From sequence record PQ850629.1: DNA of 46,874 bases. One strand, written 5' to 3'. This document shows positions 1-44,925 of the stretch, in pieces (the first letter of the stretch is position 1; the number at the start of each line of letters is the position of its first letter). Made by a program: the position numbers and the translations under genes. The notes beneath the pieces were generated by a model that saw only the letters and a list, made by a program, of their open reading frames with translations, ran no database searches and was not told the DNA's origin. This DNA comes from Escherichia phage SusanneMuster_Bas79.

Positions 1-489
1 ATGTGCAGACGCGAAATGAAAATGCATGGTGCTACACAAAAAATCATACAAATGGTAGATGAAATGAAGCTAACAAAAAAACAACGCGAAGAGCTACGCA
101 TGAAGTTCGGTGGTCGCTGTGCTTATTGTGGGTGTGAGCTACCCGAGAAAGGTTGGCATGCAGACCATGTTGAACCAGTGCTACGTAAATCTGAGCAGTG
201 CATGAAGGCAGCGGCGAAAGGGATTTTCAAGCTGAAGGCAACCGGTGAGCTATATCGACCAGAAGCCGAGCGACTGGAAAACCTTTACCCTGCGTGCGCC
301 CCCTGCAATCTGATGAAAACTTCCTATTCCCTGGAAATGTTCAGGAAGCAGGTATCTCTTCAGGTTGCTCGTGGGCGCAAAAGCAGCATGAATTTCCGCA
401 CTGCAGAGCGTTTCGGTCTTATCGCCGTGGTGGAGAAACCAGTTGTTTTCTGGTTTGAGAAATACCAGGAAGAGAACGAAAAAAAATAA
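1..489 (+). CDS. HNH endonuclease (may be 5'-truncated by window edge)
   Basis: 162-aa ORF with HNH/zinc-finger signature CAYCGC...WHADHVEPV...CAPCN; directly upstream of terminase genes, as in many cos-type phages. Confidence 0.75.
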   Translation: MCRREMKMHGATQKIIQMVDEMKLTKKQREELRMKFGGRCAYCGCELPEKGWHADHVEPVLRKSEQCMKAAAKGIFKLKATGELYRPEAERLENLYPACAPCNLMKTSYSLEMFRKQVSLQVARGRKSSMNFRTAERFGLIAVVEKPVVFWFEKYQEENEKK

Positions 490-3988: not shown

Positions 3989-5401
3989 ATGTCAAAAATT
4001 GATGCATTAAACGCCTATATACGCGACCGCGTGGCGAACAATAACCGGGCGCTTCAGCAGCAGCGGCTTTGTGCTGGCGGGAAGAATCTGGACCAGAAAC
4101 GTGAGTTCATGTGGAAGGAACTGGGCTACCCGCAGGAAATAACCGCCGAGATGTTCCGCTATGCATACGAGCGACATCCAGCCGCCGCCGCTGGCATTAA
4201 CCGCATTATTAATAAATGCTGGCAGAAATATCCTGAAGTGGTCGAAGATGGCGAGGATGATAAGAACTCAACGCCGTGGGAGTTGTCCATCAACGATATG
4301 ATGAAGCGTGCCTATCCGTTCATCAAAGAGGCCGACAAGCGCAACGCCATCAACAGATACTCCGCTGTTATCCTGCAAATCCGCGATGGTCGCCAGTGGA
4401 GTGAGCCGGTAGACATCACCAAAACCCGCCGCATTAAAGATAAATCCATTGTTCGCTTTATCCCAGTATGGGAAGAGCAACTCCGCGTCAGCGCATGGAA
4501 TAACGATGAAACAAGTGAAGACTACGGCATGCCTGAGATGTACGAATATCAGGAAAGCGCCGTAGAGGATTTCGATAGCGACGGCAAGCCTGAGCGTTCC
4601 GTGCAGATTCATCCTGATCGCATTATCATTCTGGCAGAGGGTAGCTTCGATGGCAGTATGTTCAGTGGCATCCCGATGCTACGTGCTGGCTACAACAGCC
4701 TTATCGACATGGCTAAGGTTTCCGGTAGTTCAGCAGAAGGCTTCCTGAAGAATGCCAGCCGTCAACTGGCTGTTAACTACACGAAGGACAACGTAACGCC
4801 AGCAAGCCTTGCACAGTCAATGGGTGTATCTCAGGATGAGCTTATTGACATCATGAATGACAATATCGAGATGCTGAATTCTGGCATTGACGCTGCACTA
4901 TTTAGCATGGGCGCCGAGACTCAGGTGTTATCCGTAACGCCAGCTGACCCGAAACCAACATGGGAAGTGGCTGCCAACCAGTTCGCTGCATCAATGGCGC
5001 TTCCGTTCACCGTCATTTTCGGGCAGCAAACCGGACGCCTTGCGAGTGATGAAGACAAGATGCAGGAGGCGATGACTGCCAAGCAGCGCCGAGAAACATG
5101 GGTGGATTATGTTATCTCAATGTTCGTTGAGCGCATGATTCAGTTCGGCATCGTCGATAAAGCACCGGAAAATGGCTACAAGGTTAAGTGGGACGACCTG
5201 CTTGCTCCATCAGAGCTGGATAAGGCGGAGTTGCTGTCTAAGCTCGCCACTGCGAACAAGTCGTTCTTTGATGCTGGTCAATCTGCGTTGCTTACCGTCG
5301 ATGAGGCTCGCGGCATGGTTGGTATGGAGCCGATTGAACTTGATGAAAGTTATCGCGAAGACACGCCACCGGAAGATGAAAATGAAGATACTCCGGTTTA
5401 A
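3989..5401 (+). CDS. portal protein
   Basis: 470 aa; position between packaging genes and Mu-F-like head morphogenesis gene; acidic C-terminus; assignment mainly by synteny and size. Confidence 0.65.
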
Positions 5402-6335
5402 CGCAAGACTTCCGCAGCCGCGCATATCGCAGAGCCTGACCGACCCGTTAGGCGCTGCAACCCGCATGTCGAAGATGGACAAGGTGATAACGCGCAAATA
5501 TAAGCAACTCAGGACTCGTGCGCTTGAGTTGTTTCGCACCATTCCGCATAGTCAGACTAACGCAGAATCAAGCGGTCTGTATTTCTATGATTTCAGTAGT
5601 GCGCGCGCCGCTACTTTCATGGATGAGTTGCAGGCGCTGATTGACGAGATTCTGCTGGAAGGTGACGACTTCAGTCACGGCAGGATGTGGGCCAATGTGT
5701 TCATCGGTGATGCGTATCAGGCAGGAACGCAGAAGGCCAACTCTGAACTATCAAGCCTGTCTCCGGTTTATGCCGAGCAAAGGCCTATTGCCGCGATACT
5801 CTACAGTGAGCCATATCTGAATCGGCTGCGGCTTGCGTATACAGCTGGTTACTCGGACTGGCGAGGATTGAGTGATTACTCACGCCAACAACTGGCATCC
5901 GTCATTATGGAAGGCATTGCCCGTGGTGCCAATCCTCGAGATGTTGAGGCTGATATTGTTAAGCGTGTTGACGTGTCACATAGTTACGCGAAGCAGATAG
6001 CGCAGACTGAAATCACCGGAACGCTGCGGCAGGCTAACAGGAGAGAAGTCATTGAGGCTCGCGAGGAATTAGGTATTGAAACGGTGATGCTGTGGCAATC
6101 GGCATTATTGCCTGGTCGAACGAGATTTACTCACGCGGCACGGCACGGGCGGTTTTACGCGCCAGAGGAGATTGACACGTTCTATAGCGAGAATGGCAAT
6201 AGATATAATTGCCACTGTGCACAAGTACCAACATTGATAATGGATGGCAAGCCAGTCATTCTTGAGTCGTCGCAGGAAAGGCTTGATAAGCAGCGTGAAG
6301 CGTGGCAATCAGCCAATAAAAAGCCCTCTAAGTGA
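5376..6335 (+). CDS. head morphogenesis protein (Mu F / SPP1 gp7 family)
   Basis: C-terminal motif [16 protein letters not shown] resembles the conserved R-x-R-x2-H-x3-G core of the Mu F family; ORF track extends upstream to 5172 but overlaps portal, so ATG 5376 (or 5343/5382) is the likely start. Confidence 0.7.
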
Positions 6336-15259: not shown

Positions 15260-16330
15260 ATGGAAAAGATTATTTTTACCAAAGACCTGGTAGCCAACTC
15301 CGCAGTGGTGGCTGACCAGTGGAAACATCTGACCATCGACCGCAAGGTGTTCTGCAATGCAGAAGCTGAACTGGCGAAAACATACGGTGTTAACGCCACC
15401 GCACTGGTAACGAAAGATTACTGGCGCGACGTGGATAACGTCACCACCCGCGTTTTCCGCAACGAAGCTGGTCAGGACATGATGGCTGACCTGATGGGCA
15501 TCGCGGCAAACATCAACATCGGAAAGACTGTGGCAATCAGCCGCATTGCTTCCGATGCTGGCAAGGTAGTCCGCACTCTGTCTGGTCAGGAGCCGGAAGA
15601 TTTGGATAAAACTCGCTACGATTACACTGGCGATGTGATCCCAATCTTCAAAACTGGCTACAGCCGAGAATGGCGCGAGCTGCTGGGTATGCAGTCTGAA
15701 GGCTTCGACCCACTGCTGGACGATCAGGCCAACGTCACCTTTAACCTGCGTTCCGACATGGCGCAGTATCTGCTGACCGGCGACCAGACTCTGAACGTGA
15801 ACGGCGTTTACACTGGCTATGGTATCACCAACCACCCGAACACTGTTCAGGTTAACCTGAATGCTTCCGGCGGCCTTAATATCGACCTGCAAACTGCAAC
15901 GCCAGACGAAATCGTGACCTTCTTCAATCAGGATTTCCAGGCTATTCTGGATGCGCAGAACGTATTTGAGCAGGTGACTCTGTGGGTTTCTCCGGCAGTG
16001 CGTCGTAGCTTCATGCGTCCGTATTCTGATGCGGCAGGCTTCAAAGGCGGCACTGTTGAGCAGTACATCACGCAGTTTGGCAATGGTCGCATCGGTAAGA
16101 TTGGCACCAACTTCCTGCTGACTGGTAACCATTTCGTTGGCTACGTTCGCAACGACATGTACATCCGTCCGCGTGTTGCTCAGCCAGTTTCCACCTACGC
16201 GGCAGCTCGTGCCAACCCGCACGATAACTTTAACTTCCTCGTGTGGTCTGCTTTTGGTTTGCAGATTCGCAAGGACGCCACTGGCAAGTCCAGAGTGTTC
16301 AACGGCTACGGTACGCAAACTCCGGTGTAA
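15260..16330 (+). CDS. major capsid protein
   Basis: 356 aa, follows scaffold and decoration-like genes, followed by terminator. Confidence 0.7.
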   Translation: MEKIIFTKDLVANSAVVADQWKHLTIDRKVFCNAEAELAKTYGVNATALVTKDYWRDVDNVTTRVFRNEAGQDMMADLMGIAANINIGKTVAISRIASDAGKVVRTLSGQEPEDLDKTRYDYTGDVIPIFKTGYSREWRELLGMQSEGFDPLLDDQANVTFNLRSDMAQYLLTGDQTLNVNGVYTGYGITNHPNTVQVNLNASGGLNIDLQTATPDEIVTFFNQDFQAILDAQNVFEQVTLWVSPAVRRSFMRPYSDAAGFKGGTVEQYITQFGNGRIGKIGTNFLLTGNHFVGYVRNDMYIRPRVAQPVSTYAAARANPHDNFNFLVWSAFGLQIRKDATGKSRVFNGYGTQTPV

Positions 16331-36722: not shown

Positions 36723-37667
36723 TTATAAATTAAACTGTTTTTTGAACCATTCAGGCGTTTCCATTTCTATGACAGGATTACCCATTGAATAACCGGGCCA
36801 CGAATTGGCTTTTTTGCACGCCTTGTAAATTTCCATAGCGCCATGCAACTGAATTCGACCGATGCGTAATTGCTCTTCAGTCAAGCGAATTAACGCAGGA
36901 ATAAATGGTGCTTTCTTTTCCTGAACGAGAAGATTAACAGAGCGTGGCGCATGACCATATGCCGCAACAAACATGTCGTGCTGCATCGCCATTTTCATAA
37001 AGTACCCAAGTCTCGCAGCATGACGGAAAAACTCTTCTGGCTTGGCGCTCACCGCTGTTTTGTAGTCGATGATGTCGCCACCTTTGGTAAGGCAGTCAAA
37101 GCGAACTTTTGCCTTCTCTCCGTTAAGTTCACCTAGAATTGACACTTCAGCATAAGCACCAGCGAGAAGACTGCTGTAATAGCTGTTTGCGTGGATTACA
37201 GCACGCATTTGCTGAATAGCGTCATAATCACCACCTTCCAGCATTTGCTTTCCTACAGCAGCTTTTTCAGCCTCTTCACGGATGACATCGTAAATTTTCA
37301 CTGGCTCGCCAGTCGCCTGGATGATTTTGATCACCTCAGCTTTCGACTTTCCTGAAAGTCCTTTGATGCCTCGTTCTTTTGCCCATGAGTTCATATCACT
37401 TACAGTAACAAGCAGGTCATCACCAAAATCTTCTTTGGTTGGCATTCGTGCATATTCAGCATCAAAACGCTCTGGTTCAAGCAACGCAGTATGGCTACCT
37501 GTACCGAATATAAGAGCTTTTGATTGCTCATCCTCTTCGTCTTTGTATCGCCATGCTGCTGGGCATCTGTCAAGTATATTCCATAATCCAGAGCCATTAA
37601 TATGCTCTGTGTCTGCGTGGTAATCTTCATTACTGAGTTCATTATTGAAATAGACTTTCATCATCAC
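36723..37667 (-). CDS. PD-(D/E)XK family exonuclease (recombination exonuclease)
   Basis: 314 aa; DCLTKGGDIIDYKT resembles the D...D/E-x-K nuclease core; partnered with ATPase and SSB. Confidence 0.6.
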   Translation of the reverse strand: MMMKVYFNNELSNEDYHADTEHINGSGLWNILDRCPAAWRYKDEEDEQSKALIFGTGSHTALLEPERFDAEYARMPTKEDFGDDLLVTVSDMNSWAKERGIKGLSGKSKAEVIKIIQATGEPVKIYDVIREEAEKAAVGKQMLEGGDYDAIQQMRAVIHANSYYSSLLAGAYAEVSILGELNGEKAKVRFDCLTKGGDIIDYKTAVSAKPEEFFRHAARLGYFMKMAMQHDMFVAAYGHAPRSVNLLVQEKKAPFIPALIRLTEEQLRIGRIQLHGAMEIYKACKKANSWPGYSMGNPVIEMETPEWFKKQFNL

Positions 37668-38290
37668 TCTCCGTGGTTACAGAATTCTTTATGCATCTTT
37701 TCTCTAAACTTCATGACAGCAACTCTTGCTTTATCAATATCATGAAATAATCCAATGTGGTATTTAATACCATTAACCGTACATCTGGCATGCCATTTTT
37801 TGCATTGTTTGTTCCAGTAAACACCTTTCACTCCAGATGTATTATTTTTTTGCTTTTTACGATTAAACTGATTCTGTTCATTGCTTGCTATTCTTAAGTT
37901 ATCAATCCTGTTGTCATCTCTAATGCCATTAATGTGATCAATATTATCTTCTTGCCAATAACCATAACAAATCAACCACGCGAGTATGTGAGCATAATAC
38001 CTATTATTATTTATGCTTATTTCTATGTAACCGTTATCTTTTTTGCAGCCCGCCAAATCTCCATTGTTTACGCAACCAACAGTCTTGTTCCATGCAAACA
38101 AACCAGTTACCAGATTGTAAGTTAAGTTATCTAAAACAACATTACGAGGTATTCTTTTTCTTCCACCTATGGTGTTTGACCCTGCATTTCCCTGAGCAAA
38201 ATCTTGCTTTTGCAGTTCCGATAAACTCATTTCCGCAAACCTCGCACTTCTTAACGGTGATAGCCATTTCTTAACCTCTATTGTAATCAT
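37664..38290 (-). CDS. HNH homing endonuclease with AP2-like DNA-binding domain
   Basis: YAHILAW...DHINGIRDDNRIDNLR (HNH) then GVKGVYWNKQCKKWHARCTVNG (AP2-like); AT-rich gene. Confidence 0.65.
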   Translation of the reverse strand: MITIEVKKWLSPLRSARFAEMSLSELQKQDFAQGNAGSNTIGGRKRIPRNVVLDNLTYNLVTGLFAWNKTVGCVNNGDLAGCKKDNGYIEISINNNRYYAHILAWLICYGYWQEDNIDHINGIRDDNRIDNLRIASNEQNQFNRKKQKNNTSGVKGVYWNKQCKKWHARCTVNGIKYHIGLFHDIDKARVAVMKFREKMHKEFCNHGE

Positions 38291-38335: not shown

Positions 38336-38776
38336 TCAATCTACATCATTCAGCAAGCCAAAATAGAAAAGTGTGGCTCTTTTTAGTTCATCAAGACCGT
38401 AAGCAATGGCGGCATAATGACCAAGTCTGCACATCTCAGTTAACACAGCCGATTGCTCCTTGCTCACTCTGCTTTTGCTTTTATCGCGGCGCTTTGACTC
38501 AATCATCCCGCAACTGTGATTCGCACCCGGCGTCATTATCACGTTGTCGCCTATTCCAGGCTTAACCCCCATCTTCTGGCGCTTCAGTACGAACTGGACG
38601 CGGCTGGATGTTCCTGTTTCATTCGGGACGTGAAACCATAGCACATCAGGGAAACAGTGTTGCATCCATGTTCCATAACCCATCTGGTCAGTCTCCTCTT
38701 TTGGGCATTCGCCGCGATAACCGCTATCAAATACCCATATACCGCTATCAAGCTGCTTCACTTTGTTCTCCTGCAA
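38336..38776 (-). CDS. VRR-NUC domain nuclease
   Basis: 146 aa; WFHVPNE...GVKPGIGD...MIESKRR pattern consistent with VRR-NUC; overlaps helicase gene end. Confidence 0.6.
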   Translation of the reverse strand: MQENKVKQLDSGIWVFDSGYRGECPKEETDQMGYGTWMQHCFPDVLWFHVPNETGTSSRVQFVLKRQKMGVKPGIGDNVIMTPGANHSCGMIESKRRDKSKSRVSKEQSAVLTEMCRLGHYAAIAYGLDELKRATLFYFGLLNDVD

Positions 38777-40685
38777 AATCTTTTCTATGGATTATGTCGC
38801 GACCTTTATCATTAATGCGATGAGTGATGCGTTTTGGCGCTTTAATCAATCCAGCATACATCATGAACTGCTTAGCATTCTGGCATTTCAGGATTTTCCC
38901 CGCCATTGACTTATCATCAAGGTGAGGAAAAATAGCCTTTGCCTTGAACATGTTTTTCATGTGAGTCGCACCGCCATATGGGTAGAAAACTTCGTTAGCC
39001 CAGCCTTCTTTGCCATCACAACGATTAATCCAGTAGCGATACAAAATACCTTCTCCATCCTTTGTTAGCTGGACTTTGAAATCAATAACATCAGCCCACT
39101 CATTATCGGTATACGCACGCTCATTCAGTGCCGCATTCGGGTCGCGCAACACGTGATCGCAATGCCGGCAATAGCGCGCCGTTGGGTCGTTTTTAGTGCC
39201 GCATCCATCATCAAAAATCCGTATTCCGTGCTTATCAAAACCGCAACGAATATAACTGAAAAACTCCTCGCAGCGACCATCTGGCGACAATGCATCTTTG
39301 CCAATGCATCGACGCGCATATGGGCTGTTCATTGTTCCACATGTATGACACGGAACTTGTTCGCCACTGCGTTTTGAACGTTGCGCTTCAGCTTCTTCCA
39401 GAATTGGGTCTTCATATAGCTGACCAAGCTCAAACATCGTGCCTGAGAAATCAAGAACCAGATGGTTTTCTTTATGATACCCGGCGTCAATTTGGTCTTT
39501 CTTCAGCAGTCGCATTCCGCGACCAAGCAACTGAACAAGAAGGGTGAGCGACATTATTTTTCGCAATATAACGCTTGTATCCCATAGCGGGATGTTTACG
39601 CCGGTCGTCAAGCAACCAATTTGGAAAACATATTTAATCTTGCCAGTGTATGCATCCTTTAATGCCTTGCGTCTGGCTTTCTGTCCCATATCTTCGGTGA
39701 CGATCGCATAACTTCCTTCAGGTAGGTATTTTGCCGCCTCCTGACAGTGCTTCTTGCCAGCGCATGTAATCAATACGCCGTTTCTGTTTTTTGTCAGCTC
39801 CATAACCTTGAGCATGATTTTCTGCGTGAGTGTTCCTTGCTCAAGGATTTCTTTCTGCATCTGCTTGAGTTGCTCGGTGGTAAATTCCTGAACTCCATCA
39901 CTTCCTGACGCCTCAAATGCTGACAGGTCGTAATGCAGATCATCAATATCATGAAGACCAAAAATTGTAGGGACAAGAAAGCCATTATCAACAAGGTATT
40001 TGGTATCAATATTTATTATTTCATGCTTCCAGTAAGAACCCTTAATTGACTCAGTTCCACGAAATGGGCTGCCAGTGTAGCCAATAACAATGACATCGTG
40101 TCCGTATTTAGCTTTGCACCTACGGTTAAATTCGGTCATTATTACGCCGTACTGTGTGTCTGAATCTTCTCCAACAATATCCTCCCAGTTCACTTGATGG
40201 CACTCATCAACCAAAATATATCGTGGGCAAAAGTCTGAAAGTGCACACTTTGAGATAACATTGCCTGATTCATCCTTTATGTCGAAAAGTGAGTTTTTTA
40301 TTGTTCTCTCCGTCCCAGCAATAAGCGGGTATGCCGTTGACTTTCTGCCAAGAGACGCGCTGAAAAGTGAGTTTTTAACACTCAGATTCCATAGCTCTTC
40401 CGCATCCTGCTCAATAATTTCCCCCTGTCTGGCAATAACAAGGCCTTCCCACCCCATATCCTGAAAGCGTCGCGCAATCATGGCAATCATAATGGTCTTT
40501 CCAGCACCTACAGATGCCGTCACAAAACTTGGCTTAGGGTCTTTGCCAAACTTGCGGATAACTTCAGCCGTCTTTTCATAAACCAGCCACTGATATGGTC
40601 GCGGCTCAATCTCACCCGTATGAACAACTGACCGCAATTTGTCTATATCCAATTCAGCAATCATTGCGTCTATTTTATGCGTCAT
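38748..40685 (-). CDS. SF2 DNA helicase (DEAD/DEAH-box type) with C-terminal zinc-ribbon region
   Basis: Walker A ASVGAGKT, motif II LVDECHQ, C-terminal Cys clusters (CHTCG...C, C-x2-C). Confidence 0.8.
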   Translation of the reverse strand: MTHKIDAMIAELDIDKLRSVVHTGEIEPRPYQWLVYEKTAEVIRKFGKDPKPSFVTASVGAGKTIMIAMIARRFQDMGWEGLVIARQGEIIEQDAEELWNLSVKNSLFSASLGRKSTAYPLIAGTERTIKNSLFDIKDESGNVISKCALSDFCPRYILVDECHQVNWEDIVGEDSDTQYGVIMTEFNRRCKAKYGHDVIVIGYTGSPFRGTESIKGSYWKHEIINIDTKYLVDNGFLVPTIFGLHDIDDLHYDLSAFEASGSDGVQEFTTEQLKQMQKEILEQGTLTQKIMLKVMELTKNRNGVLITCAGKKHCQEAAKYLPEGSYAIVTEDMGQKARRKALKDAYTGKIKYVFQIGCLTTGVNIPLWDTSVILRKIMSLTLLVQLLGRGMRLLKKDQIDAGYHKENHLVLDFSGTMFELGQLYEDPILEEAEAQRSKRSGEQVPCHTCGTMNSPYARRCIGKDALSPDGRCEEFFSYIRCGFDKHGIRIFDDGCGTKNDPTARYCRHCDHVLRDPNAALNERAYTDNEWADVIDFKVQLTKDGEGILYRYWINRCDGKEGWANEVFYPYGGATHMKNMFKAKAIFPHLDDKSMAGKILKCQNAKQFMMYAGLIKAPKRITHRINDKGRDIIHRKDFAGEQSEAA

Positions 40686-40760
40686 AGCTACTAACCTTTG
40701 TTGATGTTTCTACGTCAGTTAGCTTATACTCAATCTACACCAACAATCAAGGGTCAATTT
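40686..40760. promoter_or_regulatory. divergent promoter region between helicase and primase
   Basis: TTGATG -35 (40701-40706), box TTTCTACGTCAG (40707-40718), TATACT -10 (40725-40730), box CAATCTACACCAAC (40731-40744). Confidence 0.45.
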
Positions 40761-41714
40761 ATGAGATATGACTGGAAGGAAATCGAGCCAAAAATGATCG
40801 GCAACTGGCAGGCTGCCATCATGTCTATCGTCAATGTGGATAGCAGAGTTTTCAATGGCAAGCACCAGCCATGCCCTCATTGCATGGGGGTTGACCGGTT
40901 CCGTTGGGATAATCACTTCGAAACAAAAGGCGATGGCGGCGCAATCTGCAATCAGTGCGGTTCCGGCAGCGGCATGAATTGGCTGATGAAACTCTCCGGA
41001 ATGAGCTTTCCTGAAGCACTGGAGGCGCTTGGTGGATTCCTGAACATGCACCCGCGTGAAAAGCTGGAGGCAATCAGGAAAGAGCTACCGAAGATAAATC
41101 ACAGCGATGACTTCATCACCGAGCAGGAAGTCGCAGCAATCATGGCTAAAACGACTCGTGTCGCGATGAATGAGTGGACTTTGATAAATGGTATTGGTTG
41201 CGACGTTAACGTCACCAGAGGCAAATCTGGAGAACTTATTGCGGTTGAGATGATGCGAGCTGACACAATGAAACTGTGCAACGTGGCATTCATTGGCATG
41301 GATGGTGATTCAATCAGAACGTTTTTCCGCGCAGGATACAACAAGGACTCAGCCATCAACGGCAAACTCACGCGCGGCGCGATAAGCCCAATCGGAGAAG
41401 ACAACGGGAAGTTCATTTACCTGGTATCTGATTATGCCGATGCGTGGAAGTGCCATTACTTCACTGGCGCGCATGTCTGGTGCTGCTGGTCGCCGGAAAA
41501 CATGTGGGAAGTAATGCGCTCTGTTAGCGATGAAACGAAGGCGAGGTTGCGCTGCATAGTTAATTATAAATTCGACGAACTGTGTGCAGCAGAAAACGCA
41601 GGGATTCCGGTGATGCTTCCTGATGATGCCGACACTATCAGGATGGCAAAGAGAATCAGGAGAAAGATTTATGACGCTGGCGAGTTGATAGAGAAAATGT
41701 CAGTTAGAAGATAA
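40761..41714 (+). CDS. DNA primase (zinc-ribbon type)
   Basis: C-x2-C ... C-x2-C zinc-binding region (CPHCMG...CNQCG) near N-terminus; divergent from helicase; ORF track start 40698 is upstream of RBS/ATG 40761. Confidence 0.55.
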   Translation: MRYDWKEIEPKMIGNWQAAIMSIVNVDSRVFNGKHQPCPHCMGVDRFRWDNHFETKGDGGAICNQCGSGSGMNWLMKLSGMSFPEALEALGGFLNMHPREKLEAIRKELPKINHSDDFITEQEVAAIMAKTTRVAMNEWTLINGIGCDVNVTRGKSGELIAVEMMRADTMKLCNVAFIGMDGDSIRTFFRAGYNKDSAINGKLTRGAISPIGEDNGKFIYLVSDYADAWKCHYFTGAHVWCCWSPENMWEVMRSVSDETKARLRCIVNYKFDELCAAENAGIPVMLPDDADTIRMAKRIRRKIYDAGELIEKMSVRR

Positions 41715-41745: not shown

Positions 41746-42048
41746 TGCTTTGATGTTAACTTTTATTGCGAACACTTCCACCGGGTCAGGACCGAAATGT
41801 GGGTGGGTGATGGTCTTAACCGTCCATCCATCGTATGGGATATCAATACGCCTGGATTTATCGTCCTTCTTTGGATATCCTTTTGTGATAATTAACCTTT
41901 CGTACTTCCTTCCAATCTGTCCGCTATCTTTAAAGTTAATAAGGCGCTTCTTCCAGTAGTCATTAAAAAGGCGATACTCTTCCGTTTTATCTCCGCGAAT
42001 CATGGCATCGAAGTATTCACCTTTGACGGCAAGTTGCAGGTTAGCCAT
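41743..42048 (-). CDS. ASCH/PUA-like domain protein (putative)
   Basis: MANLQLAVKGEYFDAMIRGDKTEEYR resembles the N-terminal motif of ASCH/DUF3850-type proteins; ATG at 42048. Confidence 0.45.
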   Translation of the reverse strand: MANLQLAVKGEYFDAMIRGDKTEEYRLFNDYWKKRLINFKDSGQIGRKYERLIITKGYPKKDDKSRRIDIPYDGWTVKTITHPHFGPDPVEVFAIKVNIKA

Positions 42049-42304
42049 TATTTCCCTCCAGAATCCAAACTGAATTACCAATACGACTGTTATTTAAATC
42101 CTTTGACACGCGGCCATCCTTACAAAGAGAAATCAGAACCTTCCGTAACTTCGCTGCTGTCCATTCATCATCAGGAAATTCATTCACCATTGATAGACGC
42201 AAACTCCACGTAGCCACTGAGAACTTACGAAAAATTCCAAGTTTCTCCTCCTCAATGGATTTTCTCTTTCTCATCACATATAAAACCTTATCCTTCACAT
42301 CCAT
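42041..42304 (-). CDS. hypothetical protein (87 aa)
   Basis: ORF track entry. Confidence 0.35.
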   Translation of the reverse strand: MDVKDKVLYVMRKRKSIEEEKLGIFRKFSVATWSLRLSMVNEFPDDEWTAAKLRKVLISLCKDGRVSKDLNNSRIGNSVWILEGNNG

Positions 42305-42314
42305 TTCCTTACCC

Positions 42315-42506
42315 TCACTTAATCATCATCTTTGAAATATCAACGTGACCAACACAAAATCTGTGCCAGTAATCATCAAGCATGTGGTAATTAGAGCGAA
42401 TCCATACTTTGTTAATCCGGCTCCAGAAAAACCACGTCGAATAACCATGCGGCCTGAAATGCCATAAACCTTCTGAGCGACAAATTTCGCCTGATATTGT
42501 TCTCAT
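42315..42506 (-). CDS. hypothetical protein (63 aa)
   Basis: ORF track entry, Trp-rich. Confidence 0.3.
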   Translation of the reverse strand: MRTISGEICRSEGLWHFRPHGYSTWFFWSRINKVWIRSNYHMLDDYWHRFCVGHVDISKMMIK

Positions 42507-44059
42507 TTCAACCTCGGATTTATGTGAACAGTATTCCCGATAAATACGCAGTAACCATCCTCTTCAAGTGATGGCAATACACTTGACCTGAGTCGGTCAT
42601 AAATTTTAGGTATCCCTTTGAATGGTCGTACGTTTTTAAGTGAATCATAAAGCCACTTCACCGTTACGTTTGTTTTTCCTTTCTGAGCGGCAGAGCGTAG
42701 CTTTTCGGCAACAACATCAAATTCAGAACGCTCACCAGCATATCCATTTGATTCCACGGCGTCGGTGAATGTTTTTGTTAGTGCGTCATAAACACTGATG
42801 GCGCGACTAATTTCATTTTCACCGATAATCTTTGATTGCTTTCCTCCATCACACCAGTTTTCAGCAGCGTGAAATATTGCTGCCAGACGTATTATTTGCT
42901 TATCAGCTTTACCCATCGCGCCACGAAGAAGGACGTGATCCCACTTACCGCCGGGAAGGAAGTTTTTCTCCCACTGATTTCGTAACAGGCCAATCATTCT
43001 TGCTGAGTCATTGTGAAGCGTCAGTTTTGTTTTTTCTGCTGACACAACATTATGTATAAATCTTGCATATTCCGACCTCAAGCTATCTGGCATTGGCTTG
43101 CTTACAGGGCAATCATTAACCATGTCCCAGTGTTCGCGATAGCCAAGCATTGATTGCTCTCGCAACATCAGGAAACGTTCAGAAAGACCGTTCCCCCTGT
43201 CGCCAGCGGCAAGAATGGCATCAATACTTTCATCCTGCGCAATCACACTTATGTTTCCAAGCACGTAACCAGATGAAACGCCACGACCAACACGAGCAGA
43301 ACCAATGAATCCGCCATCCCAGCCCTTCAGGATGACTTCGGCGTTTGCCTTTCCACCTTCTTTTCCGTAAGAGAGGCCAAGACATGTGTTAAGGACGCTT
43401 GCCTCGTCACTTATCAGATTAAAAAAACCACCTTCATGAATGGCCTGATGCTGGACAGCCTCCGGAGTTGCGTCCGTCAGTGGATATGTGATCGTATAAA
43501 GCTCCTCCAGCTTCTCCTTTTCGCGAGCAATATCATCGCCGATTAGTGCCTTTGCATTCTGATTACTGGCCTCTTTGTATGCCTTCATCAACTCTTCAAT
43601 GCGAAGATTTATTTTTATGATCTGCTTTTCCATCTTTTTGGAAAGGTTGTCATATTCAATCTTCACCGGATTCATGTGCATTGAGTTGATGGCAGTTTTC
43701 CCTGCTGATGGAGGCTGAGAAGTAACCACGTAAAGAGAAACTGGAAGCTCTGAATGGTAATACTCAACGCTAAAGTTTCTCGTCATTGCGCTGGCAACGC
43801 ACCCAAGTAAATGCATGAACGATGTATTTATTGGGAACTGAACAGCACGAGCTGCAGCGATTGCATAACGAGACAGCAAATCTGTTCTGTGCTCACTGGT
43901 CAGTTCTGTTTCTGAGTACGTTACATCACGCTCCTTACCTTCCTTGATATCCAGCCACATATTTGAGCTTGGTGTCATGCCATGATGGAAGGCGACGCGA
44001 GCAGGAGATACTTTCAATTCCCTTGCTTCGTTGAAGATATCTTGAGCTGTGATCATCAT
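42503..44059 (-). CDS. large replication-module protein, possible origin-associated initiator/ATPase
   Basis: 518 aa; P-loop-like PPSAGKT; located next to the iteron-flanked AT-rich region; family not confidently recognised. Confidence 0.4.
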   Translation of the reverse strand: MMITAQDIFNEARELKVSPARVAFHHGMTPSSNMWLDIKEGKERDVTYSETELTSEHRTDLLSRYAIAAARAVQFPINTSFMHLLGCVASAMTRNFSVEYYHSELPVSLYVVTSQPPSAGKTAINSMHMNPVKIEYDNLSKKMEKQIIKINLRIEELMKAYKEASNQNAKALIGDDIAREKEKLEELYTITYPLTDATPEAVQHQAIHEGGFFNLISDEASVLNTCLGLSYGKEGGKANAEVILKGWDGGFIGSARVGRGVSSGYVLGNISVIAQDESIDAILAAGDRGNGLSERFLMLREQSMLGYREHWDMVNDCPVSKPMPDSLRSEYARFIHNVVSAEKTKLTLHNDSARMIGLLRNQWEKNFLPGGKWDHVLLRGAMGKADKQIIRLAAIFHAAENWCDGGKQSKIIGENEISRAISVYDALTKTFTDAVESNGYAGERSEFDVVAEKLRSAAQKGKTNVTVKWLYDSLKNVRPFKGIPKIYDRLRSSVLPSLEEDGYCVFIGNTVHINPRLK

Positions 44060-44295
44060 GAAATCCTTTTTACGTAAACCATATCTTTGTCAGGGTATCC
44101 AACCTTTGTTGAGAATTTCATGCCTTCATTCCTGCGCATGAAATAGTTTAATGCGTTCCTCAGGCTTGCAATACCTCCAAACCTCTTCGAGTCAATCATC
44201 ACAGTCTCCCCTACTGAAACCGCCGACAACCCAGAAAGAGCTGCATTCTTTTTGCCATACTTATCAAGTTTCACAAAATCCTCCAACAGCAACAA
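44056..44295 (-). CDS. hypothetical small protein (start uncertain; track start is TTG)
   Basis: ORF adjacent to iteron region. Confidence 0.35.
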   Translation of the reverse strand: MLLLEDFVKLDKYGKKNAALSGLSAVSVGETVMIDSKRFGGIASLRNALNYFMRRNEGMKFSTKVGYPDKDMVYVKRIS

Positions 44296-44348
44296 ATTAT
44301 GATTGAATCATATCATAAGTATTGAATCATGCAACATCAAATACGACT

Positions 44349-44663
44349 CACGTGGGTAACGTGGGGCAGCCGTGGGGAACATCACCTTCCCCACGAACTT
44401 TTACTCTAAGTATATGTAATATAATATAATTATTATTATTTGGGTTAATGGGTAATATTATTATTCATATTATAGATAGTAATTAACATAATATTAACAA
44501 ATGGATTATTTGAATATATTTATAAGGGGATGGGTATGAAATCTGCCCCTTTTTACCCACGAAAAATAAAAACATTCAAATCAATAATTTACGATGAAAA
44601 ACGTGGGGCAACCAACCTTCCCCACGACCTGCCCCACGAGCAAAAATTTACCCCACGGGCACG
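44349..44663. repeat. iteron-flanked AT-rich region (candidate replication origin / control region)
   Basis: about 9 copies of CCCCACG / CGTGGGG (4 left, 5 right, both orientations) flanking a roughly 120-bp strongly AT-rich core (44400-44520). Confidence 0.6.
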
Positions 44664-44680
44664 TTTTTAACGCATCCCTG

Positions 44681-44711
44681 TTGACGTAGAATCATCGTTG
44701 ATGTAGATTGA
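44681..44711 (+). promoter_or_regulatory. promoter for rightward early genes built from two reversed conserved boxes
   Basis: TTGACGTAGAAT (44681-44692) supplies -35 TTGACG; TGATGTAGATTG (44699-44710) supplies -10 TAGATT with 17-bp spacing; GAGGGTGAAGAG before ATG 44740. Confidence 0.45.
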
Positions 44712-44739
44712 ACTCATCGAAACAAACGAGGGTGAAGAG

Positions 44740-44925
44740 ATGAACAAAGAAAGCACGTACAGCATCGACCAGATGAAGTTGTTCAGCGATATATGCATGG
44801 CATTGTCACAACAGGTTCCAAGTCTACCTGCTGATATGCGCTCAAATGCCATCATTGATGCGGCAAACATGATTTGTGAGGCATATGCTATGACTGAAGA
44901 TGAATATAAGGCATCGAAGAAATGA
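44740..44925 (+). CDS. hypothetical protein (61 aa)
   Basis: ORF track entry with RBS. Confidence 0.4.
   Translation: MNKESTYSIDQMKLFSDICMALSQQVPSLPADMRSNAIIDAANMICEAYAMTEDEYKASKK

What the first reader, a model, noticed from the sequence alone, without database searches (positions are those of the whole stretch)
44349..44663. AT-rich core flanked by about nine CCCCACG/CGTGGGG iterons: candidate replication origin
Four copies on the left (44349-44398) and five on the right (44551-44663), in both orientations, flank a roughly 120-bp strongly AT-rich stretch (44400-44520). ACCTTCCCCACGA occurs on each side. The region lies between the leftward replication genes (518-aa protein with a P-loop-like motif and a 79-aa protein) and the rightward early genes. 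This is the classic iteron plus DNA-unwinding-element architecture, although a transcription-factor binding array is an alternative.
Basis: seen in the sequence. Interest (0 to 1): 0.6.

Follow-up and report, generated by a model that had tools for sequence, protein, structure and literature searches.

The report
Phage replication origin with helicase-linked iterons
This is very probably the phage's replication origin: nine short repeats arranged as a mirror image around the most AT-rich DNA in the genome, next to the gene for an MCM-like helicase that most likely binds them. It is an ordinary kind of origin, but it has not been described for this phage group or for its T1-like relatives.

Summary
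All seven exact CCCCACG copies in the 46.9-kb window, plus two CCCACG variants, lie in 44351-44657. They flank a 128-bp, 85% AT stretch that holds the most AT-rich 100 bp of the genome.

The window is a Skatevirus/Macdonaldcampvirus-like siphophage, 99.8% identical to Escherichia phage Bas78 over 1.4 kb.

- **The helicase.** The adjacent 518-aa protein is a DUF3987 helicase. Its predicted fold is MCM-like with a C-terminal winged helix.
- **Conservation.** The same layout (two palindromic repeat pairs 222 or 231-232 bp apart, extra direct copies, AT core) recurs in all 22 close relatives examined.
- **Linkage.** It recurs next to DUF3987 helicase genes in distant phages that share only replication genes with this one. 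As the helicase diverges the repeat sequence changes: CCCCA-type, TCTTACC, CGATTAAC, ATGACACG.
- **Cassette swap.** One relative, ~90% identical on both sides, has window 41746-44681 replaced as a block. It carries a different helicase and different repeats (TTATCC).

This is the behaviour of an origin-initiator cassette, and it matches the origins of staphylococcal pathogenicity islands (SaPIs). The pac-site and operator readings are disfavoured. Nothing has been tested experimentally. Verdict: new member of a known kind, moderate interest.

The parts
44351..44359 (-). Iteron L1, degenerate (TTACCCACG on the - strand), pointing away from the AT core
44360..44368 (-). Iteron L2 (TGCCCCACG on the - strand)
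44371..44395 (.). Left palindromic pair: iteron L3 (44371-44379, -) + 7-nt spacer + iteron L4 (44387-44395, +), CGTGGGGAA-CATCACC-TTCCCCACG
   Evidence: The pair is present in all 22 related loci examined.
44399..44526 (.). AT-rich core (85% AT), the putative DNA-unwinding element and the most AT-rich DNA in the genome
   Evidence: Conserved at sequence level in groups A and B and partly in Webervirus GH-K3.
44407..44416 (+). Conserved core word TAAGTATATG
   Evidence: Identical in groups A and B and in Klebsiella phage GH-K3. Used as a probe.
44429..44466 (+). (ATT)4, then an internal pair of degenerate boxes GGGTTAATGGGTAA (44442-44455), then T(ATT)3C: weak iteron copies flanked by trinucleotide repeats inside the core
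   Evidence: The internal boxes match the local iteron type in D71, L041 and L107.
44469..44497 (-). Promoter-like site inside the core, TTAATA-17-TATAAT, pointing toward the helicase operon. It overlaps two ATTAACA repeats (44482-44488 and 44493-44499).
   Evidence: The -10 region is conserved in groups A and B. Function not shown.
44527..44548 (+). Conserved GGGATGGGTA...CTGCCCC segment with partial iteron-like boxes at the right edge of the core
44553..44561 (+). Iteron R1, degenerate (TTACCCACG)
44579..44591 (+). IHF-consensus-like site AATCAATAATTTA, one of only two matches in the window
   Evidence: Read by eye as present in the DS8 and Vi II-E1 relatives but not in group B. Weak evidence.
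44602..44626 (.). Right palindromic pair: iteron R2 (44602-44610, -) + 7-nt spacer + iteron R3 (44618-44626, +). It starts 231 bp (22 helical turns) after the left pair.
   Evidence: The homologous pair in Vi II-E1 is annotated only as a 'repeat'.
44630..44638 (+). Iteron R4 (TGCCCCACG)
44649..44657 (+). Iteron R5 (TACCCCACG)
44681..44709 (+). Rightward sigma-70-like early promoter TTGACG-17-TAGATT. Its -35 marks the right boundary of the exchangeable origin-helicase cassette.
44312..44340 (-). Leftward sigma-70-like promoter (TTGATG-17-TATGAT) just outside the left iterons
44056..44295 (-). 79-aa ORF of unknown function. It is not a conserved partner of the repeats.
   Evidence: No Pfam or PHROG family. 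Replaced by two unrelated small ORFs in relatives that keep the same iterons.
42503..44059 (-). 518-aa DUF3987 helicase, MCM-like AAA+ fold with a C-terminal winged helix (residues 443-517): the proposed initiator-helicase
41746..44681 (.). Exchangeable replicon cassette: three small ORFs, the helicase, the small ORF and the whole iteron/AT-core region
   Evidence: In L107, ~90% identical on both flanks, this block is replaced by a different helicase and TTATCC repeats.
40698..41714 (+). 338-aa DnaG-type primase with a zinc ribbon, a conserved neighbour
   Evidence: Pfam PF08273 and PHROG 510. Co-occurs with the helicase in the related loci.
38748..40685 (-). 645-aa SF2 helicase with C-terminal zinc ribbons, part of the shared replication module

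Best explanation
Window 44349-44663 is the phage's origin of vegetative DNA replication, and it forms one functional cassette with the adjacent DUF3987 helicase gene.

**Proposed mechanism.**
1. Host RNA polymerase transcribes the leftward operon early and makes the 518-aa MCM-like helicase. (Inferred.)
2. Helicase protomers recognise the 9-bp repeats T-K-CCCCACG, most likely through the C-terminal winged helix. (Inferred by analogy with the SaPI Rep and SCCmec Cch helicases.)
3. The repeats lie as a mirror image around the core. Each side has one palindromic pair plus direct copies spaced 9-12 bp (the outermost right copy 19 bp). The two palindromes are 231 bp apart, so both faces are in helical register. 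(Shown in the sequence.)
4. Two helicase rings therefore assemble in opposite orientation, melt the 85% AT core and leave in opposite directions. The core carries weaker internal boxes and trinucleotide repeats. (Inferred.)
5. The neighbouring DnaG-type primase primes, and host polymerase is presumed to copy the DNA. (Inferred; the proteins of the replication module that were scanned matched no polymerase family, but the whole genome was not screened.)

The iterons may additionally modulate the two outward promoters beside them. (Speculative.)
For: 1. **Clustering.** All 7 CCCCACG plus 2 variants fall in 315 bp, P ~1e-16. The core holds the genome's most AT-rich 100 bp, 86% against a next best of 72%.
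2. **Selection on architecture.** All 22 Skatevirus-like loci examined have exactly two palindromes TGGGGnn-N6/7-nnCCCCA flanking the core. They are spaced 222 or 231-232 bp, about 21 or 22 helical turns, although the spacer sequences differ.
4. **Linkage to the helicase across distant genomes.** Vibrio myophage D71 shares only SSB, an AAA_24 ATPase, an exonuclease, the SF2 helicase, the primase and DUF3987 (40% identity) with the window. It nevertheless has TACCCCCA repeats in both orientations around an 88% AT core directly upstream of its helicase operon, 24 kb from its terminase gene. Metagenomic relatives at 62, 49, 42, 39 and 39% helicase identity all have CCCCA- or TCCCA-type clusters plus an AT core within about 2 kb of the helicase gene, three upstream and two downstream.
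5. **Iterons diverge with the helicase.** TCTTACC in Webervirus GH-K3 (38%), CGATTAAC in T1 (34%), ATGACACG in Vibrio phage K219 (26%), each flanking an AT core. Within the genus, helicases 98-100% identical go with CCCCA-CG and 87% helicases with CCCCA-nn.
6. **Cassette swap.** L107 is ~90% identical to the window on both flanks. Window 41746-44681 is replaced there by a 495-aa non-DUF3987 helicase (phrog_33132) plus seven TTATCC repeats around an AT core.
7. **Reverse search.** The core word TAAGTATATG-N8-22-ATTATTATTA found 119 IMG/VR stretches, of which 80 were returned as loci. Thirty-four of those 80 carry DUF3987, primase, SF2 helicase or exonuclease genes in the stretch held, and about a dozen more appear to be second copies in Webervirus-like contigs.
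8. **GC skew.** The cumulative minimum is at 44678.
9. **Match to a proven origin.** The SaPI origin is described as 6-12 short iterons, an AT-rich centre, at least two iterons per side in opposite directions, an MCM-like self-loading Rep with a C-terminal winged helix, and a primase next door (PMC9371898).
Against: - No experiment exists: no marker-frequency, binding or plasmid-replication data.
- The GC-skew minimum coincides with the switch in transcription direction, so it is not independent evidence.
- Which protein reads the repeats is not established. The primase and the SF2 helicase co-occur with DUF3987 in nearly all relatives. Per-domain identity did not single out the winged helix. 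The differences between the two helicase groups cluster in residues 1-80 and 321-360, not in the winged helix.
- The repeat clusters sit directly upstream of two outward promoters, and the core contains a promoter-like site, so a transcriptional role is possible.
- In T1-like phages the pac site and genome start are placed in the same untranslated region (PMC7718038).
- The link between helicase group and the CG extension rests on only two clades.
Confidence: 0.72

Rival explanations
1. The repeats are operator or activator sites for a DNA-binding regulator of the two divergent early promoters. On this reading the AT-rich stretch is promoter and UP-element DNA, not an origin.
For: - Sigma-70-like promoters face outward directly beside each repeat cluster (44681-44709 on + and 44340->44312 on -), and a 10/12 promoter-like site lies inside the core.
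- The -10 inside the core is conserved in close relatives.
- Palindromic sites suit dimeric regulators.
- The small ORFs upstream of the helicase in some relatives show weak AP2-like or YdaS-like matches.
Against: - No regulator is shared among the phages that share the element. D71, T1 and GH-K3 share only replication and recombination proteins (plus an HNH endonuclease in T1 and an uncharacterised 146-aa ORF in GH-K3) with the window.
- The small ORF next to the repeats is of three unrelated types with identical repeats.
- In L043, L044 and GH-K3 locus 1 the element lies downstream of, or between, co-directional genes rather than at a divergent promoter region.
- In the L107 swap the element goes with the helicase, while the rightward promoter and its genes stay.
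- Conserved spacing of 21 or 22 helical turns between two palindromes across an unwinding-prone core is not a usual operator layout.
Confidence: 0.12
2. The element is the packaging initiation (pac) region. The repeats would be small-terminase binding sites flanking an imprecise cleavage zone, as in SPP1 or P22.
For: - In T1-like phages the genome start and pac site are placed in the same untranslated region between the divergent early operons (PMC7718038; the T1 record starts about 215 bp from its AT core).
- Three of 29 related assemblies (Akira, L016, L026) begin inside the AT core.
Against: - The element is conserved in phages with no detectable terminase or structural homology to the window (tblastn).
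- In D71 it lies 24 kb from the terminase gene and directly beside the helicase.
- GH-K3 has two copies, one inside the replication module between the primase and exonuclease genes.
- The repeats change when the helicase is swapped although the packaging genes stay ~90% identical.
- The three contig starts are at different positions, and Akira's two ends abut without overlap, as expected for assembly breaks in extreme AT DNA.
Confidence: 0.04
3. It is an origin, but the repeats are read by another module protein (the zinc-ribbon primase, the SF2 helicase with zinc ribbons, or a host factor) which then loads the DUF3987 helicase.
For: - Primase and SF2 helicase co-occur with DUF3987 in nearly all relatives.
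- D71 keeps CCCCA-like repeats at 40% DUF3987 identity while GH-K3 at 38% does not, so helicase identity alone does not predict the repeat type.
- An IHF-like site is present.
Against: - In the L107 swap the primase 3' end (the only part held) stays 92-96% identical while helicase and repeats both change.
- L044 has primase and DUF3987 but no SF2 helicase within the ~7.8-kb stretch held.
- In the characterised SaPI and SCCmec systems the winged-helix-bearing MCM-like helicases are the iteron readers (PMC9371898).
- There is no DnaA box in the region.
Confidence: 0.1

Closest known systems
SaPI origins with Rep initiator-helicases (SaPI1, SaPIbov1, SaPI5) and the related SCCmec Cch helicase
   Same: - Six to twelve short iterons are split by a central AT-rich region, with iterons in opposite orientation on each side.
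- The element lies adjacent to the gene for a self-loading MCM-like AAA+ helicase that carries a C-terminal winged helix.
- A primase gene lies next door, and the origin and initiator are exchanged as a specificity pair (PMC9371898).
   Different: - The helicase is DUF3987, a different Pfam family from the SaPI Rep helicases, with no sequence-level match to any solved structure.
- The host is a virulent Gram-negative siphophage, not a satellite.
- The origin lies upstream of the helicase here, whereas in SaPIs it lies downstream.
- The repeats are 9 bp, include two phased palindromic pairs 231 bp apart, and there are internal boxes and trinucleotide repeats in the core.
- The one measured DUF3987 helicase moves 5'-3' (PMC11724360), whereas SaPI Reps move 3'-5'.
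Coliphage P4 ori/crr with the alpha primase-helicase (from general knowledge, not tested here)
   Same: A phage-encoded helicase-initiator binds short repeated octamers through a C-terminal DNA-binding domain. A second repeat cluster (crr) lies elsewhere in the genome, reminiscent of the two cassettes in Webervirus GH-K3.
   Different: P4 alpha is an SF3 helicase fused to a primase. P4's repeats do not flank a central AT core in mirror symmetry. The window has only one cluster.
Phage lambda ori with the O and P proteins (described in PMC11447400; otherwise general knowledge)
   Same: Iterons lie next to an AT-rich region, origin function depends on nearby transcription, and the origin and initiator form a swappable specificity module among relatives.
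   Different: Lambda's iterons lie inside the initiator gene O. O is not a helicase and recruits host DnaB through P. Here the repeats are intergenic and the neighbouring protein is itself a helicase.
SV40 and polyomavirus core origin with large T antigen (PMC1779811)
   Same: Pairs of inverted short repeats next to an AT tract direct assembly of two helicase hexamers in opposite orientation.
   Different: Large T antigen is an SF3 helicase with a separate origin-binding domain, and its single central palindrome is much more compact than the two palindromes 231 bp apart seen here.

Membership tests
Iteron/AT-core origin served by a self-loading MCM-like initiator-helicase (SaPI/SCCmec type) | Multiple short repeats, at least two on each side of the centre, in opposite orientations | tested here: met
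   Four plus five copies in the pattern (- - - +) core (+ - + + +).
Iteron/AT-core origin served by a self-loading MCM-like initiator-helicase (SaPI/SCCmec type) | Central AT-rich unwinding region | tested here: met
   128 bp at 85% AT, containing the most AT-rich 100 bp of the genome. Melting itself was not tested.
Iteron/AT-core origin served by a self-loading MCM-like initiator-helicase (SaPI/SCCmec type) | Adjacent gene encodes an AAA+ helicase of the MCM (pre-sensor-II insert) clade with a C-terminal winged helix | tested here: met
Iteron/AT-core origin served by a self-loading MCM-like initiator-helicase (SaPI/SCCmec type) | Primase gene in the same module | tested here: met
   338-aa zinc-ribbon DnaG-type primase at 40698-41714. 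It is conserved beside DUF3987 in the relatives.
Iteron/AT-core origin served by a self-loading MCM-like initiator-helicase (SaPI/SCCmec type) | Repeat sequence and initiator change together (specificity pair) | tested here: met
   Cassette swap in L107: different helicase and TTATCC repeats between ~90% identical flanks. Different repeats accompany diverged helicases in GH-K3, T1 and K219. This is correlative only.
Iteron/AT-core origin served by a self-loading MCM-like initiator-helicase (SaPI/SCCmec type) | Initiator binds the iterons specifically and melts the AT region; origin plus initiator replicate autonomously | not testable with these tools
   Needs EMSA or footprinting, permanganate probing and a plasmid replication assay.
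Iteron/AT-core origin served by a self-loading MCM-like initiator-helicase (SaPI/SCCmec type) | Sequence homology of the initiator to SaPI Rep or Cch | tested here: not met
   Only DUF3987 was found by Pfam, and there is no sequence match to any PDB chain. Similarity is at fold level only. It therefore works like this family but belongs to a different helicase family.
DnaA-dependent oriC-type origin | Cluster of DnaA boxes (TTWTNCACA) | tested here: not met
   None in 44200-44800 and one in the whole window.
Lambda-type origin | Iterons inside the initiator gene; a separate loader for the host helicase | tested here: not met
   The repeats are intergenic. The proteins of the replication module that were scanned matched no O/P-like family.
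pac site (P22, SPP1 or T1 type) | Co-inherited with the terminase and marking the packaging-series start | tested here: not met
   The element follows the replication module into phages without homologous terminases. It lies 24 kb from the terminase gene in D71. Virion DNA ends were not testable.
Known structured RNA | Match to an Rfam family | tested here: not met
   No match at E <= 1 in 44100-44900.

The most novel reading that the evidence does not exclude
The element may be one instance of a portable origin design used by DUF3987 (MCM-like) helicase phages across unrelated virion types: Skatevirus-like phages, Webervirus, T1 and a Vibrio myovirus.

- The design would be a conserved AT core flanked by freely exchangeable iterons matched to the local helicase. 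The core carries TAAGTATATG, box-adjacent (ATT/ACT)n trinucleotide repeats reminiscent of bacterial DnaA-trios, and internal weak boxes.
- If so, it would supply the unmapped origin of the classical phage T1 and its large family.
- It would also suggest that an MCM-like initiator uses a trio-like single-strand recognition element.
Probability: 0.2. Interest if true: 0.65.

Novelty: new member of a known kind. Interest (0 to 1): 0.45.

Why it matters
Recent genome papers on T1-like phages state that no origin could be found (PMC11447400, PMC7718038). None of the top 30 public records matching this region annotates an origin. Vi II-E1 lists the two palindromes only as repeats, and Bas78 places two small CDSs over the element.

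Recognising a helicase-linked iteron/AT-core cassette has four uses:
- It gives a concrete, testable origin for Skatevirus/Macdonaldcampvirus phages, and by extension for the Drexlerviridae examined (T1 and Webervirus).
- It assigns an initiator role to the widespread DUF3987 helicase family.
- It offers natural specificity pairs (CCCCACG, TCTTACC, CGATTAAC, TTATCC) for dissecting how an MCM-like helicase reads and opens an origin.
- It would improve annotation and the engineering of these therapeutic-candidate phages.

Tried and rejected
- **The 79-aa protein as repeat binder: rejected.** It has no family match, and it is replaced by two unrelated small ORFs (one weakly AP2-like) in relatives with identical repeats.
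- **pac site: considered seriously, then rejected.** T1-like genome starts fall in the same untranslated region and three assemblies break in the AT core. Rejected on the D71, GH-K3 and L107 evidence and because the breaks fall at different positions.
- **Per-domain identity analysis: inconclusive.** It was meant to decide whether the winged helix or the N-terminal HTH-like segment reads the repeats.
- **Rho-independent terminators: rejected.** The scan flags the palindromes, but the right one has no T-run and both are conserved as paired sites.
- **Host DnaA boxes and GATC clustering: absent**.
- **Rfam: no RNA family**.
- **Repeat scan within 2.8 kb of the T1, Rtp and GH-K3 helicase genes: nothing found**. 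For T1 and GH-K3 the cassettes lie further away, in the divergent early untranslated region and, in GH-K3, also beside the primase gene. For Rtp the equivalent region lay outside the stretch fetched.
- **Pickard et al. 2008 paper on Vi II-E1: not held**. Whether it comments on the repeats is unknown.
- **Sequence search of the helicase against PDB chains: nothing useful**.

Full report
**Observation.**
- CCCCACG occurs seven times on both strands of the 46,874-bp window, and all seven lie between 44360 and 44657. Two more copies carry CCCACG only, at 44351 and 44556.
- From the shuffle mean of 2.73 copies per window, 0.018 are expected in 315 bp. P(>=7) is about 1e-16.
- Oriented on their own strands, the nine sites read T-[G/T/A]-C-CCCACG.
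- Between the clusters, 44399-44526 is 85% AT. Its best 100-bp window is 86% AT, against 72% for the next best in the genome.

**What the phage is.** A 1.4-kb stretch around the region is 99.8% identical to Escherichia phage SandraMuster_Bas78. It is 90-95% identical over about 80% of its length to Shigella phage DS8, Salmonella phages Vi II-E1, ST1UNAM and STGO-35-1, and others. The BASEL study treats this cluster as Skatevirus and relatives (PMC11990801). The Vi II-E1 record already marks the two palindromes as "repeat of sequence GTGGGGCAACCAACCTGCCCCACGA", with no function given. The Bas78 record lays two short hypothetical CDSs over the element. No listed record annotates an origin.

**Anatomy.** The element is close to a mirror image.
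- Left flank: three copies on the minus strand (44351, 44360, 44371), then one on the plus strand (44387).
- Right flank: 44553 (+), 44602 (-), 44618 (+), 44630 (+), 44649 (+).
- Each flank contains a palindrome CGTGGGGnA-N7-TTCCCCACG (44371-44395 and 44602-44626). Their starts are 231 bp apart.
- Folded as a single strand, the region has z = -5.4 because of this dyad symmetry.
- The core contains TAAGTATATG, (ATT)4, an internal pair of degenerate boxes GGGTTAATGGGTAA, T(ATT)3C, two ATTAACA repeats and a promoter-like TTAATA-17-TATAAT pointing toward the helicase.
- Sigma-70-like promoters face outward just beyond each cluster.
- The region has no DnaA box, one IHF-like match and no Rfam family.

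**Neighbouring genes.**
- The 518-aa protein is DUF3987 (E = 9.7e-35), which PHROGs labels a DNA helicase.
- An AlphaFold2 model built on 45 homologues is confident (pLDDT 89.8, pTM 0.86). It ends in a helix-strand-helix-helix-strand-strand winged helix at residues 443-517.
- This fits published inferences that DUF3987 proteins are distant MCM relatives with a C-terminal winged HTH that act as phage replicative helicases (PMC4889955). It also fits the biochemical demonstration of helicase activity for one PriCT-DUF3987 protein (PMC11724360).
- A zinc-ribbon DnaG-type primase (40698-41714), an SF2 helicase, a PDDEXK exonuclease, an AAA_24 ATPase and SSB complete the module. The module proteins that were scanned matched no polymerase family.

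**Conservation in close relatives.** In 29 IMG/VR loci with helicases 87-100% identical, the AT core sits at the same place.
- All 22 loci examined have exactly two palindromes TGGGGnn-N6/7-nnCCCCA flanking the core. The spacing is 222 or 231-232 bp, a difference of one helical turn, although the spacer sequences vary.
- Both helicase groups share T-[G/T/A]-CCCCA. The 98-100% group adds CG (77% and 70% at the next two positions) and the 87% group shows no preference there.
- The differences between the two helicase groups cluster in residues 1-80 and 321-360.
- The small ORF between the repeats and the helicase is of three unrelated types, all with the same CCCCACG repeats. The 79-aa protein is therefore not the conserved partner.

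**Distant relatives.** The helicase has more than 1,100 homologues in phage records.
- **Vibrio myophage D71 (79 kb).** It shares only SSB, the AAA_24 ATPase, the exonuclease, the SF2 helicase, the primase and DUF3987 (40% identity) with the window. Directly upstream of its helicase operon, 24 kb from its terminase gene, it has TACCCCCA repeats in both orientations around an 88% AT core with an internal GGGGGTAATGGGGGTA pair.
- **Five metagenomic relatives (62-39% identity).** All carry CCCCA- or TCCCA-type clusters around an AT core within about 2 kb of the helicase gene. In two the cluster lies downstream of the gene, not at a divergent promoter.
- **Klebsiella phage GH-K3 (38%).** It has two cassettes with TCTTACC repeats, one between the primase and exonuclease genes and one in the divergent early untranslated region. 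Their cores are inverted copies of each other and share TAAGTATATG...ATTATTATTATT with the window.
- **T1 (34%) and K219 (26%).** T1 has CGATTAAC repeats and an 85% AT core in its divergent early untranslated region. K219 has ATGACACG repeats around an AT core.
- T1 and GH-K3 share only replication-module genes with the window, plus an HNH endonuclease in T1 and an uncharacterised 146-aa ORF in GH-K3.

**Reciprocal and swap tests.**
- Searching IMG/VR with the core word TAAGTATATG-N8-22-ATTATTATTA gave 119 stretches, of which 80 were returned as loci. Thirty-four of the 80 contain DUF3987, primase, SF2 helicase or exonuclease genes in the stretch held. About a dozen more appear to be the second copy in Webervirus-like contigs. 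The rest look like chance hits in AT-rich DNA.
- One hit, L107, is ~90% identical to the window up to 44681 (the -35 of the rightward promoter) and again from 41746. Between these points it carries a different small ORF, a 495-aa helicase with no detectable DUF3987 similarity (Pfam none, hhalign probability 18%, phrog_33132) and seven TTATCC repeats around an AT core.
- The repeats therefore belong with the helicase cassette, not with the rightward early genes.

**Interpretation.** The most economical reading is a replication origin whose iterons are read by the neighbouring MCM-like helicase. Two rings would be loaded in opposite orientation to open the AT core, with the DnaG-type primase following.
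- **Shown:** the repeats and their statistics, the architecture and its conservation, the helicase fold prediction, and the linkage and co-replacement of repeats with the helicase.
- **Inferred:** binding through the winged helix (by analogy with SaPI Rep and Cch, PMC9371898), double-ring loading, melting, and any role of the internal promoter or of the trinucleotide repeats.
- The cumulative GC-skew minimum at 44678 agrees but is confounded by gene orientation.

**Rivals.**
- A regulator-binding array remains possible because promoters adjoin the clusters. However, no regulator is shared among the phages that share the element, and the element also occurs away from divergent promoters.
- A pac site is suggested by the placement of T1-like genome starts in the same untranslated region (PMC7718038) and by three assemblies that break in the core. 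The element nevertheless follows replication genes rather than terminases. The breaks are at different positions, and Akira's two ends abut.
In L107, however, the primase 3' end (the only part held) stays 92-96% identical while the repeats change.

**Novelty.** The architecture is the classical iteron-plus-unwinding-element origin, and it matches the SaPI origin description closely. The helicase belongs to a different family (DUF3987). I found no paper or annotation describing an origin for Skatevirus-like or T1-like phages, and two recent papers report failing to find one (PMC11447400, PMC7718038). I rate it a new member of a known kind, of moderate interest, with all functional claims awaiting experiment.

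Noticed in passing
L107 10492-13418 (IMGVR_UViG_2974772676), corresponding to window 41746-44681: A close relative has the whole origin-helicase block replaced. It carries a 495-aa helicase of PHROG 33132 with no detectable DUF3987 similarity, and TTATCC repeats around an AT core, between flanks ~90% identical to the window. L071 appears to be the same type.
   Followed up: yes
L046 (Klebsiella phage GH-K3, MH844531) 15292-15660 and 49071-49300: This Webervirus carries two copies of the cassette (TCTTACC repeats plus an AT core). The roughly 50-bp cores are inverted copies of each other. One copy lies between the primase and exonuclease genes and the other in the divergent early untranslated region. 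Many 49-51-kb IMG/VR contigs show the same two hits.
   Followed up: partly
window 44429-44466; also L043 ~5835-5860, L044 ~5005-5035 and group B loci: Trinucleotide repeats, (ATT)n or (ACT)n (TAA/TAG on the other strand), lie directly beside the internal pair of weak boxes in the AT core. They persist in relatives even where the repeat unit changes. From memory they resemble the DnaA-trio elements of bacterial oriC. Not tested statistically.
   Followed up: partly
L038 (phage T1, NC_005833) 140-425: T1's divergent early untranslated region holds three tandem ACGATTAAC repeats, a further inverted copy (GTTAATCG, at 317) and an 85% AT core about 215 bp from the record start. T1-like pac sites are placed in this same region, so origin and pac may be neighbours in T1-like phages.
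   Followed up: partly
L009 (Akira, MK599416), L016 and L026: contig starts: Three of 29 related assemblies start inside the AT core, at different positions, and Akira's two record ends abut exactly. These are probably assembly or coverage breaks in 85% AT DNA rather than physical termini, but the clustering is non-random.
   Followed up: partly
window 44322-44429 and 44530-44670 (+): The near-identical Bas78 record annotates two short hypothetical CDSs (35 and 46 aa) lying over the iterons. In group B relatives the second reading frame, read by eye, stops after about 12 codons. These are probably over-calls.
   Followed up: partly
L007, L008, L010, L011, L013 (-273 to -1 relative to the helicase start): In DS8, Vi II-E1 and related phages the 79-aa ORF is replaced by a 90-aa protein with a weak AP2-domain match (E = 7e-4, below the Pfam cut-off). 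D71 has a weakly YdaS-like 103-aa protein in the same position.
   Followed up: partly
window 44579-44591: An IHF-consensus-like site (AATCAATAATTTA) lies between right-hand iterons R1 and R2. It is one of only two matches in the genome. Read by eye it is conserved in DS8 and Vi II-E1 but not in group B.
   Followed up: partly
window 37664-38290 (-) and 1-489 (+): HNH endonuclease genes sit inside the replication module and at the window start. The first has three homologous copies in T1.
   Followed up: no
window 42503-44059, helicase residues 11-27: The N-terminal segment ARELKVSPARVAFHHG looks like a helix-turn-helix. It falls in the part of the protein (residues 1-80) that differs most between the two helicase groups. 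It could be an alternative or additional DNA-reading element to the C-terminal winged helix.
   Followed up: partly
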